The position numbers are program-made. Positions 3,154-4,042 of a stretch of DNA of 14,677 bases are shown here, one piece after another (position 1 is the first letter of the stretch; every line of letters begins with the position of its first letter). The DNA is from Octopus sinensis (taxonomy: Eukaryota). Location of the stretch: the NCBI RefSeq assembly GCF_006345805.1, contig NW_021825756.1, positions 1 to 14,677 of the forward strand, written 5' to 3'.

Positions 3154-3219
<66 letters not shown>

Positions 3220-4042
3220 CCACTCTCTTATATTTATTTTGTAAAAATATTATAATATATTATAAAATATTATAATAATCCAGGTTTCTCGGAGCACTAG
3301 GCCACTTGGTGTAGAATAGATATACTATTAAATTAGTATCTAATTCTCTCACCCTTATTAATTAATTATATTATGCTGCATTTATTTCTAAATGCTGTAT
3401 TTGTTTTCCGTGAAAATTTGGCGCGCTGTTAGTTGGGGCATTGAATTATAACGTCGGATGTAATCAATTGAACCACACGCGTATTTATCGTTATGGTAAA
3501 ATCTGGCGTGTGATTGAGTGGATTTCATCCAGATAGTTTTGGCTGAGGAGCTACAAGTGGATTTTTTTGTAAGTAAAATACATTTAATTCATTAATAGCG
3601 AAACAATTGTCCCAAAATAATCTGTAGTTTTGTTATTTTTTATTTGCCCTGTCCGTGTGAGCTAACAATCGTACTGACTTTCATGGAAAAATGTATTTTT
3701 GTGGTTTGAAACCTTTTGGATTAACTGGTGCTAGAGTGAGCCATATAGTGACCACTCTCTTATATTTATTTTGTAAAAATTATAATATATTATAAAATAT
3801 TATAATAATCCAGGTTTCTCGGAGCAATAGAGCACTAGGCCACTTGGTGTAGAATAGATATACTATTAATTAGTATCTAATTCTCTCACCCTTATTAATT
3901 AATTAATATATATATATATATATATATAGTGTAATATAATATATATATATAGTGTATATATATATATATATAGTGTATATATAGTGTATATATATATAGT
4001 GTATATATATATATATATATATATATAGTGTATATATATATA

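What the first reader, a model, noticed from the sequence alone, without database searches (positions are those of the whole stretch)
3211..3905. Retrozyme-like element: 532-nt non-coding unit with one hammerhead ribozyme, integrated as 1.3 copies
Seen: a 158/163-bp direct repeat with 532-nt period brackets a complete type I HHR, has no ORF, and sits between (TA)n tracts. Established: metazoan non-LTR retrozymes are short HHR-bearing repeats that self-cleave to monomers, form circRNAs and are thought to be mobilised by PLEs; PLE pseudo-LTRs also arise as partial tandems. Inference: an RT copying a ~532-nt circular or concatemeric RNA for more than one round would leave this terminal redundancy. 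The unit seems longer than the few-hundred-nt monomers I associate with animal retrozymes, so it may be an undescribed family.
Basis: partly seen in the sequence, partly recalled or inferred. Interest (0 to 1): 0.88.

Follow-up and report, generated by a model that had tools for sequence, protein, structure and literature searches.

The report
Hammerhead-ribozyme retroelement copy in octopod DNA
A short non-coding mobile element carrying a self-cutting RNA motif sits as about one and a third copies inside a TA-repeat tract of what looks like an octopus-type genome, and it fits a known class of ribozyme-bearing retroelements, not a new one.

Summary
Copies 3211-3368 and 3743-3905 are a direct repeat 532 nt apart, with 155 aligned positions all identical and 3 indels. 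Between them lies a complete type I hammerhead (3530-3624, cleavage 3611/3612). It has every core nucleotide, a 7+5 bp helix I and a G10.1-C11.1 pair. Helix III is an 8-nt palindrome, and helix II is unusually long at 50 nt. Rfam misses it in large scans but reports Hammerhead_1 at 28.6 bits (gathering 34) on a 106-nt stretch. None of 2000+2000 shuffles gives a comparable motif. The unit is non-coding and 32% GC. As a circle it folds far better than shuffles (z -4.6).

A 5'-truncated Penelope-like element, also flanked by (TA)n, lies 4 kb downstream.

Best reading: a greater-than-unit cDNA copy of a non-autonomous, PLE-dependent hammerhead element (non-LTR retrozyme type) inserted into a (TA)n tract.

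Two things are not supported. The 532-nt length is not unusual, since published consensus lengths span 51-972 bp. A circular template cannot be told apart from a concatemer or from template jumping.

Genome copy number could not be checked. This is a new member of a known kind, of moderate interest.

The parts
3129..3215 (.). Upstream (TA)n tract with interspersed TATAGTG; presumed target microsatellite
   Evidence: TRF period-2 array. Its last 8 nt (ATATAGTG) are identical to the unit's own 3744-3751, giving microhomology at the 5' junction.
3211..3368 (+). Direct repeat copy 1 (158 nt)
   Evidence: Aligned to 3743-3905: 155 of 155 aligned positions identical, 3 indels.
3369..3742 (+). Single-copy part of the unit (374 nt), holding the hammerhead and an imperfect long hairpin at 3456-3530
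   Evidence: No other match in the window. Self-inverted match 3456-3530, 70% over 77 nt. Paired in the circular fold.
3530..3624 (+). Type I hammerhead ribozyme (HHR-A) with extended helix I
   Evidence: Rfam Hammerhead_1 at 3537-3617, 28.6 bits, E 1.1e-5. Descriptor hit with helices 7/4/4. MFE -22.6 kcal/mol, z -3.44, 0 of 200 shuffles as stable.
3543..3549 (+). Core box CUGAGGA (C3-A9)
   Evidence: Read from the sequence.
3550..3599 (+). Helix II arm, 50 nt: 4 bp (GCUA/UAGC, with G10.1-C11.1), 2x2 internal loop, 8 bp stem, distal 4 bp hairpin
   Evidence: Folded alone: -10.2 kcal/mol, z -2.84, 3 of 200 shuffles as stable.
3600..3611 (+). GAAA (G12-A15.1), helix III 8-nt palindrome ACAAUUGU (3603-3610), C17; cleavage between 3611 and 3612
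   Evidence: Read from the sequence. The predicted dimer pairs the palindrome in trans, -51.0 kcal/mol against 2 x -22.6.
3743..3905 (+). Direct repeat copy 2 (163 nt); ends where the downstream TA tract starts
3906..4097 (.). Downstream (TA)n/(TATAGTG)n tract
   Evidence: TRF arrays of period 2 and period 23.
7883..8596 (+). Context: 5'-truncated, frameshifted Penelope-like element ORF remnant (end of RT region, linker, GIY-YIG). Non-coding tail runs to 9018. Flanked by (TA)n at 7726-7865 and 9019-9231.
   Evidence: tblastn with P0003 residues 235-479, 52% identity, E 1.5e-62. P0003 matches RVT_1 and GIY-YIG in Pfam, both just below the curated cut-offs. BLASTP 74% and 69% identity. TRF.

Best explanation
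The stretch 3211-3905 is one integration event. It is a greater-than-unit-length (about 1.3x) DNA copy of a roughly 532-nt non-coding RNA that carries a single type I hammerhead ribozyme. That makes it a non-autonomous hammerhead retroelement of the metazoan non-LTR retrozyme / PLE-dependent kind.

Shown:
- The hammerhead, the terminal redundancy, the lack of coding capacity and the strong predicted self-pairing.
- (TA)n on both sides, and a PLE copy nearby that is also bounded by (TA)n.

Inferred:
- At a master locus with at least two hammerheads, transcripts self-cleave, probably through dimeric hammerheads paired by the palindromic helix III, and the monomers are ligated into circles.
- A PLE reverse transcriptase, with a GIY-YIG endonuclease that nicks (TA)n, primes on a TA-rich patch of the RNA (the UUAAUUAAUUA/UAUUA region).
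- It copies through the intact cleavage/ligation site for more than one unit and resolves at a second TA-rich patch (AUAUAGUG).
- This leaves the 158/163-nt redundancy and no discernible target-site duplication.

The copy is a dead end, because one hammerhead cannot release a monomer. A concatemeric uncleaved transcript, or template jumping between two RNAs, would leave the same footprint as a circle. I hold the circle only as the slightly favoured variant.
For: - Hammerhead: all core nucleotides, G10.1-C11.1, type I topology, Rfam Hammerhead_1 at 28.6 bits with E 1.1e-5 on the 106-nt stretch. 0 of 2000 whole-window shuffles and 0 of 2000 block shuffles give an equal motif.
- Its build matches the published description of canonical metazoan type I hammerheads: helix I about 6 bp, helix II 4 bp, helix III a 1-2 bp stem with a small palindromic loop, active as dimers (PMC4209133 passages).
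- Redundancy: 155 of 155 aligned positions identical, so the two ends arose together or very recently.
- The cleavage site 3611/3612 is internal and uninterrupted. This excludes a hammerhead-cleaved linear monomer primed at its own 3' end as the template.
- Non-coding. tblastn with one PLE protein finds nothing in 3211-3905.
- Circular fold of the 532-nt unit: -136.1 kcal/mol against shuffles at -106.2 (sd 6.45), z -4.6, 0 of 100 shuffles as low, 65% paired, with hammerhead helices I and II still formed. This matches the 'highly self-paired' circles with a free hammerhead described in PMC7229834 (passages and Discussion).
- GC is 32.0%, within the reported low-GC range.
- PLE context: a truncated RT/GIY-YIG element at 7883-8596 is flanked by (TA)n on both sides. 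Its relative P0003 carries a C-x4-C-x2-C linker before GIY-YIG. That is the Zn-finger-like motif hypothesised to direct PLE insertion into microsatellites such as (TA)n (PMC8557442 passages).
- Published models propose more-than-unit reverse transcription of hammerhead circRNAs by PLE enzymes (PMC4209133 passages; PMC7229834 Discussion). Retrozymes are reported to be related to PLE pLTRs, with monomeric copies common (bioRxiv 10.64898/2026.07.22.740005, Results).
Against: - Only one copy of the unit exists in the 14.7-kb window, and genome copy number could not be measured.
- A search with the unit's 66-aa spurious frame found no candidate. This is uninformative either way.
- The locus fails the tandem criterion of retrozymes, having one hammerhead in 1.3 units.
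- The hammerhead is below Rfam's gathering score and was missed in two larger scans.
- Its 50-nt helix II leaves no ordinary loop 2 for the loop 1-loop 2 contact that efficient cleavage needs.
- (TA)n flanks are not specific. About 24% of the window is (TA)n, and LINE and SINE-like copies abut such tracts too.
- GC equals the window mean of 31.9%.
- No sequence similarity above shuffles links the unit to the neighbouring PLE tail: 67 of 300 shuffles score as high, and 32 of 300 for the last 120 nt.
- The two redundant ends differ by 3 indels. One circle read twice would give these only through RT or later slippage. Two different units of a concatemer would explain them more simply.
Confidence: 0.6

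Rival explanations
1. This is an ordinary PLE pseudo-LTR product. Two heavily 5'-truncated copies of an autonomous PLE were inserted head to tail: the last 158 nt, then the last 537 nt. The 'unit' is then simply the 3' non-coding tail of a full-length PLE and not a separate non-autonomous family.
For: - PLEs typically insert as partial tandems forming pLTRs, carry hammerheads near their 3' ends and favour (TA)n (PMC8557442 and PMC4209133 passages).
- A PLE fragment with a non-coding tail of about 420 nt sits in the same window.
- The layout [partial copy][longer copy], with both ending at the same 3' end, fits 3211-3368 plus 3369-3905.
Against: - No ORF remnant in 3369-3905. tblastn with P0003 finds nothing there, but only one PLE protein was tried.
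- No similarity to the neighbouring PLE tail above shuffles.
- The hammerhead has a helix III stem-loop like retrozyme and canonical motifs, not the minimal PLE type (PMC4209133 passages).
- The hammerhead lies outside the repeated part.
- The strong fold of the 532-nt unit as a circle is not required of a PLE tail.
Confidence: 0.2
2. This is a remnant of a longer hammerhead-bearing tandem array (satellite-like), or a single insertion later partly duplicated by replication slippage or unequal exchange and trimmed by (TA)n instability. The redundancy then says nothing about the RNA template.
For: - Retrozymes and hammerhead satellites occur as arrays from dimers to large multimers (PMC7229834 passages).
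- The region is rich in unstable (TA)n.
- The three differences between the copies are all slippage-type indels at short repeats.
Against: - Both ends of the 1.3-unit block fall exactly at (TA)n tracts with short microhomology, as expected of one insertion into a TA tract.
- A local tandem duplication gives two full units, so a second trimming event is needed.
- 0 substitutions in 155 aligned positions argues against an old, eroded array.
Confidence: 0.12
3. The hammerhead-like motif is a chance match in AT-rich DNA, and the repeat is an unrelated segmental duplication.
For: - Rfam score below gathering, and the motif is missed in the whole-window and 1-kb scans.
- The descriptor limits were chosen after seeing the motif.
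- The helix II arm is atypically long.
Against: - 0 of 4000 shuffles in total reach the motif's quality.
- E 1.1e-5 on the 106-nt stretch; scaled by length to the whole window this is still about 1.5e-3, by my arithmetic.
- 12 helix I pairs, the G10.1-C11.1 pair and a perfect 8-nt palindrome in helix III are all features the literature lists as non-random (PMC4209133 passages).
Confidence: 0.03

Closest known systems
Metazoan non-LTR retrozymes (Cervera & de la Pena 2020, PMC7229834; Li et al. 2026 preprint, 10.64898/2026.07.22.740005)
   Same: - Type I hammerhead with a short palindromic helix III.
- Non-coding, low GC, unit length inside the reported 51-972 bp range.
- Predicted highly self-paired circle with the hammerhead free to fold.
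- Co-occurrence with PLEs.
- Monomer-like dead-end copies are reported as common.
   Different: - Only 1.3 units and one hammerhead here, not a tandem of hammerhead-bearing units.
- Helix II is a 50-nt arm instead of about 4 bp plus a small loop.
- Copy number and circRNA are unknown.
- The host appears to be an octopod. I found no paper describing retrozymes in such a host (searches; see the full report for their limits).
Penelope-like element pseudo-LTRs with hammerheads (Cervera & de la Pena 2014, PMC4209133; Craig et al. 2021, PMC8557442)
   Same: - Partial head-to-tail tandem.
- A hammerhead in the non-coding part.
- (TA)n insertion sites with no discernible target-site duplication.
- More-than-unit reverse transcription is proposed for these elements.
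   Different: - No RT/GIY-YIG ORF between the repeats.
- The hammerhead lies in the single-copy part, not in the repeated part.
- The hammerhead is canonical-like (helix III stem plus palindromic tetraloop), not the minimal PLE type.
Hammerhead-bearing satellite and SINE-like repeats of newts, schistosomes and cave crickets (recalled; named in part in the PMC7229834 introduction)
   Same: Type I hammerhead that works best as a dimer through a weak or palindromic helix III, set in short non-coding repeats.
   Different: Those are high-copy tandem or SINE-like families with a compact helix II. High copy number is not shown here.
Plant LTR retrozymes (PMC4918200; abstract seen in the search listing only)
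   Same: Non-autonomous retroelement with a hammerhead, propagating through circular RNA.
   Different: Plant elements have type III hammerheads inside true LTRs, plus PBS/PPT, 4-bp target-site duplications and GC above 55% (PMC7229834 passages). None of these is seen here.

Membership tests
Hammerhead ribozyme, type I (Rfam RF00163) | Conserved core: C3 U4 G5 A6 N7 G8 A9, G12 A13 A14, A15.1-U16.1, H17 | tested here: met
   CUGAGGA 3543-3549, GAAA 3600-3603, U16.1 at 3610, C17 at 3611.
Hammerhead ribozyme, type I (Rfam RF00163) | Three helices around the core, with helix I open (type I), and a G10.1-C11.1 pair | tested here: met
   Helix I 7 + 5 bp. Helix II 4 bp base (GCUA/UAGC) plus an extension. 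Helix III 2 bp plus the AAUU loop, or an 8-bp palindrome in a dimer.
Hammerhead ribozyme, type I (Rfam RF00163) | Score at or above Rfam's gathering threshold (34 bits) | tested here: not met
   28.6 bits, full-length model, with a 38-nt insertion in loop 2. No hit in the whole-window or 1-kb scans.
Hammerhead ribozyme, type I (Rfam RF00163) | Loop 1-loop 2 tertiary contact and self-cleavage activity | not testable with these tools
   Needs in vitro transcription of one-copy and two-copy constructs. Helix II has a 2x2 internal loop 4 bp from the core that might stand in for loop 2; this is inference only.
Metazoan non-LTR retrozyme | Tandem repeats (dimer or more), each unit carrying a type I hammerhead | tested here: not met
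   1.3 units and one hammerhead at this locus.
Metazoan non-LTR retrozyme | Non-coding, low GC (below about 45-50%), no LTR/PBS/PPT | tested here: met
   No ORF of 50 aa or more on the + strand; the 66-aa - strand frame has no Pfam match. GC 32.0%, though the window mean is 31.9%, so this does not discriminate. PBS and PPT were not specifically searched.
Metazoan non-LTR retrozyme | Monomer predicted to form a highly self-paired circle with the hammerhead free to fold | tested here: met
   Circular MFE -136.1 kcal/mol, z -4.6, 0 of 100 shuffles as low, 65% paired, helices I and II retained. This is in silico only.
Metazoan non-LTR retrozyme | Dispersed multi-copy family; expressed as linear and circular RNA | not testable with these tools
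   No eukaryotic genome or transcriptome collection was available. Within the window the unit is unique. The spurious-ORF protein search had no candidates.
Metazoan non-LTR retrozyme | Co-occurrence with Penelope-like elements in the same genome | tested here: met
   PLE remnant at 7883-8596.
Autonomous Penelope-like element (pLTR-ORF-pLTR) | RT plus GIY-YIG ORF between the direct repeats | tested here: not met
   No ORF, no Pfam match, and no tblastn match of P0003 within 3211-3905. Only one PLE protein was used as probe.
Autonomous Penelope-like element (pLTR-ORF-pLTR) | Hammerhead located within the repeated pLTR, usually of the minimal type | tested here: not met
   The hammerhead at 3530-3624 lies in the single-copy part 3369-3742 and has a helix III stem-loop.
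Autonomous Penelope-like element (pLTR-ORF-pLTR) | Partial head-to-tail tandem; insertion into microsatellites such as (TA)n | tested here: met
   features as described in PMC8557442 passages.

The most novel reading that the evidence does not exclude
The 1.3-unit copy, with both junctions at TA microhomology and the ligation site read straight through, would be a preserved integration footprint of rolling-circle reverse transcription of a hammerhead circRNA of about 530 nt by a (TA)n-targeting PLE enzyme in an octopod.

Its hammerhead, with CUGANGA and GAAA held 50 nt apart by a long helix II arm, would define a structural subclass that standard descriptors and Rfam filters miss. A second candidate in this window (7475-7560, 59-nt spacing) shares that layout.

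This could be the same thing as the 'HHR_half_core' cases with 35-50 nt spacing that Craig et al. noted in Naiad PLEs. If so, some supposedly hammerhead-less PLE lineages may carry such ribozymes after all.
Probability: 0.15. Interest if true: 0.6.

Novelty: new member of a known kind. Interest (0 to 1): 0.4.

Why it matters
If genome copies confirm it, this would extend hammerhead retrozyme-type elements to cephalopods. A recent detailed Octopus vulgaris repeat annotation (PMC13282606, term search only) lists recently active PLEs, and a term search found neither 'ribozyme' nor 'retrozyme' in its text. It would also give a clean single-insertion footprint (greater-than-unit copy, TA microhomology at both junctions) bearing on how PLE enzymes copy hammerhead RNAs. 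The long helix II is a practical warning: Rfam at default settings and standard hammerhead descriptors can miss such variants, so counts of 'hammerhead-less' repeats may be too high. None of this changes the accepted model; it adds a case to it.

Tried and rejected
- Rfam at gathering on the whole window: 0 matches.
- Rfam at E<=10 on 3100-4100: 9 matches, none a hammerhead, all low-complexity miRNA-like hits in (TA)n.
- Rfam at E<=10 on 7462-7572 and 8850-8950: no hammerhead for the second candidate or for the possible PLE-tail relic.
- BLASTN of the unit and of neighbouring blocks against the window: only its own repeat and AT-rich low-complexity matches.
- Smith-Waterman comparisons against shuffles, none above chance:
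  - unit vs PLE tail: 67 of 300 shuffles score as high;
  - unit vs 7346-7725: 157 of 300;
  - PLE tail vs 7346-7725: 260 of 300;
  - last 120 nt of the unit vs last 120 nt of the PLE tail: 32 of 300.
- Helix II arms of the two hammerhead candidates: 897 of 2000 shuffles score as high. I therefore dropped the idea that the two are homologous in sequence; only the layout is shared.
- MAFFT of the two candidates misaligned the core boxes and was not used.
- Fold of 7346-7725: z -0.27. Fold of 7470-7565: z -0.79. Neither is notable.
- Protein search with the unit's 66-aa - strand frame, as a handle on other copies: no candidate.
- Pfam on P0001 and P0002 directly: no match. The PLE identity came from the relative P0003.
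- ARAGORN: 0 tRNA-like genes in the window.
- The bacterial-type promoter/terminator scan is irrelevant for a eukaryote and showed fewer sites than shuffles.

Not checked:
- Genome contigs holds only bacteria and archaea and was not used.
- Paper supplements were closed. Craig et al.'s supplementary file S1 (the HHR_half_core list) and Cervera & de la Pena's Supplementary Figures S6 and S9 (circle structures, mobilisation model) could bear on the helix II and template claims.

Full report
**What is there**

The window is AT-rich (about 32% GC) and densely packed with repeats. Twelve period-2 (TA)n arrays cover 3561 of 14677 bases (summed).

The reported feature is real. Copy 3211-3368 and copy 3743-3905 form a direct repeat with a 532-nt start-to-start distance. 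All 155 aligned positions are identical. The copies differ by three indels only: a 2-nt TA loss, an 8-nt quasi-duplication and a 1-nt change in an A run.

The block 3211-3905 is bounded by (TA)n/(TATAGTG)n tracts at 3129-3215 and 3906-4097. There is no stop-to-stop frame of 50 aa or more on the + strand. The longest frame is 66 aa on the - strand and has no Pfam match.

**The hammerhead**

On the + strand the motif runs as follows:
- helix I 5' strand: 3536-3542
- CUGAGGA: 3543-3549
- helix II arm: 3550-3599
- GAAA: 3600-3603
- ACAAUUGU: 3603-3610
- C17: 3611
- helix I 3' strand: 3612-3618

Helix I is extended by a further 5 bp (3530-3534 with 3620-3624) across one mismatch. The order of the parts makes it type I.

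Every conserved core position is present, and so is the G10.1-C11.1 pair. Helix III is a 2-bp stem with an AAUU loop and forms a perfect 8-nt palindrome. That is the build described for canonical metazoan type I hammerheads, which cleave as dimers (PMC4209133, passages read). In silico, two copies pair through that palindrome at -51.0 kcal/mol, against 2 x -22.6 for monomers.

The unusual part is helix II. In place of about 4 bp and a small loop it has 4 bp, a 2x2 internal loop, an 8-bp stem and a distal hairpin, 50 nt in all. Folded alone this arm gives -10.2 kcal/mol, z -2.84.

That insertion explains the Rfam behaviour:
- nothing at gathering on the whole window;
- nothing among 9 weak hits on 3100-4100;
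- a full-length Hammerhead_1 match on 3525-3630 at 28.6 bits (gathering 34), E 1.1e-5 for that stretch, with a 38-nt loop 2 insertion.

A descriptor of my own found two hits in the real window. No hit of comparable quality appeared in 2000 whole-window or 2000 block-wise dinucleotide shuffles. Relaxed hits occurred in 7 of 2000 and 15 of 2000. The descriptor's loop limits were set after I had seen the motif, so these numbers are somewhat flattering. I take the hammerhead as genuine.

**The unit as an RNA**

I permuted the 532-nt unit at the cleavage site and folded it as a circle. It reaches -136.1 kcal/mol, against -106.2 (sd 6.45) for 100 dinucleotide shuffles: z -4.6, none as low, 65% paired. 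Hammerhead helices I and II remain formed. This fits the 'highly self-paired' retrozyme circles with an unblocked hammerhead described in PMC7229834 (passages and Discussion read). GC is 32.0%, inside the low-GC range given there, but it equals the window mean.

**Context**

About 4 kb downstream, 7883-8596 (+) is a frameshifted, 5'-truncated Penelope-like element.
- It matches residues 235-479 of P0003 (E 1.5e-62).
- P0003 is a 479-aa protein with RVT_1 and GIY-YIG Pfam matches, both just below the curated cut-offs.
- Identity is 69-74% over the two open stretches.
- P0003 has a C-x4-C-x2-C motif before GIY-YIG. This is the Zn-finger-like linker of Neptune-type PLEs, hypothesised to direct insertion into microsatellites such as (TA)n (PMC8557442, passages).

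This PLE fragment and its non-coding tail (to 9018) are themselves flanked by (TA)n at 7726-7865 and 9019-9231.

Named relatives point to an octopod host. One is 'myb-like protein D [Octopus bimaculoides]' for the PLE piece (71% identity). Another is an Argonauta hians protein for the LINE RT at 984-1640 (62%; the best unnamed hit is 90%). The SINE-like sequences also look octopus-like to me, but that is recall and was not tested.

**How it most likely arose**

The hammerhead cleavage/ligation site is internal and uninterrupted in the DNA. The template was therefore not a hammerhead-cleaved linear monomer primed at its own end. It was a ligated circle, an uncleaved multimeric transcript, or two RNAs joined by template jumping.

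Both ends of the block fall at TA-rich patches of the unit. The 5' junction shares ATATAGTG with the flanking tract, and the 3' junction lies in UUAAUUAAUUA followed by UAU. This fits target-primed synthesis from a nicked (TA)n with microhomology at priming and at resolution. As reported for PLEs in microsatellites, no target-site duplication can be read (PMC8557442 passages).

More-than-unit reverse transcription of hammerhead circles by PLE enzymes is the published model (PMC4209133 passages; PMC7229834 Discussion). Retrozymes have been tied to PLE pLTRs by phylogeny, with monomeric copies common (bioRxiv 10.64898/2026.07.22.740005, Results read).

Three slippage-type indels with zero substitutions between the two passes suggest RT slippage, or two slightly different units of a concatemer. 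This mildly weakens a strict 'one circle read twice' picture.

Zero substitutions in 155 positions bounds pairwise divergence at roughly 2%. If the rough Octopus vulgaris calibration applied (JC 0.09 at about 25 My, PMC13282606 passages), the event would be younger than about 3 My. This is an inference resting on an unverified host.

With one hammerhead, this copy cannot release a monomer and is a dead end.

**What does not hold**

The suggestion that 532 nt is beyond known animal retrozymes is contradicted by reported consensus lengths of 51-972 bp (mean 650 bp in ray-finned fishes; preprint Results) and by circles from 150 to >1000 nt (PMC7229834 Discussion).

(TA)n flanks are weak evidence here, because LINE and SINE-like copies in the window abut TA tracts too.

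The unit has no second copy in the window and no similarity above chance to the neighbouring PLE tail.

Copy number, permuted ends and RNA circles could not be tested.

**Rivals**

- The main rival is an ordinary doubly truncated PLE tandem, meaning the unit is the 3' tail of an autonomous PLE. I put this at about 0.2.
- A trimmed array or a later local duplication is at about 0.12.
- A chance motif is at about 0.03.

**Novelty**

In one search, 48 papers held at least two of 'hammerhead ribozyme', 'retrozyme' and 'octopus', and 25 were listed. Only 2 of the listed papers contain 'octopus', once each, and neither describes such an element. One of the two, PMC8557442, I read in passages; the other I saw in the listing only.

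In one search, 1,410 papers held at least three of the five terms and 20 were listed. Among those, only PMC8557442 combines hammerhead and cephalopod terms.

A term search of the O. vulgaris repeat annotation (PMC13282606) found 0 occurrences of 'ribozyme' or 'retrozyme'. These searches cover only the held library, and unlisted papers were not seen.

I rate this a new member of a known kind, with one unusual trait (the long helix II) worth following.

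Noticed in passing
window 7475-7560 (+): Second hammerhead-like motif with the same odd layout: UGAC / CUGAAGA / 59-nt helix II arm (4 bp, 2x2 internal loop, 6 bp stem) / GAAA / quasi-palindrome ACAUGUGU / A17 / GUCA. It passes my descriptor, and 0 of 4000 shuffles reach its quality. Against it: G10.1 pairs with U, helix I is only 4 bp, there is no Rfam hit at E<=10, the fold is unremarkable, and there is no sequence similarity to the first motif. 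It is possibly a decayed relative; I put that at about even odds.
   Followed up: partly
window 7883-9018 (+), flanks 7726-7865 and 9019-9231: 5'-truncated, frameshifted Penelope-like element (end of the RT region, a linker with a 6-aa gap at the C-x4-C-x2-C motif, GIY-YIG) plus a non-coding tail of about 420 nt. It is bounded by (TA)n on both sides.
   Followed up: yes
window 8884-8916 (+): In the PLE tail, about 107 nt from its 3' end: GAAA followed by the palindrome ACCGGU, then C, then 5 nt complementary to a stretch upstream. This is where a PLE hammerhead would be expected, but the CUGANGA box is degenerate and Rfam finds nothing. It may be a decayed hammerhead.
   Followed up: partly
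window 222-5142: The (TA)n tracts in this span share an interspersed TATAGTG variant. They separate a LINE fragment, two SINE-like copies, the hammerhead element and an unidentified 366-nt block. This looks like one large microsatellite hit repeatedly by insertions. The same 8-mer, ATATAGTG, is part of the hammerhead unit (3744-3751).
   Followed up: partly
window 3025-3101 and 4619-4695: Two SINE-like copies in inverted orientation, 91% complementary over 77 nt. Their (GAT)n/(ATC)n tails face inward toward the TA tracts that hold the hammerhead element. The family name was not established by any tool.
   Followed up: no
window 4098-4463: Unidentified non-coding block between two (TA)n tracts, with no other match in the window. 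It contains a CUGAUGA box at about 4188, but my descriptor finds no hammerhead there.
   Followed up: no
window 984-2043 (+) and 10907-11305 (-): Degraded LINE-type reverse transcriptase fragments (RVT_1, E 4.7e-12, 1.8e-4 and 2.9e-11). Relatives carry endonuclease/exonuclease domains. The closest named hit is from Argonauta hians.
   Followed up: partly
window 3456-3530: Imperfect hairpin of about 25 bp inside the unit, just upstream of the hammerhead (self-inverted match, 70% over 77 nt). It is paired in the circular fold.
   Followed up: partly
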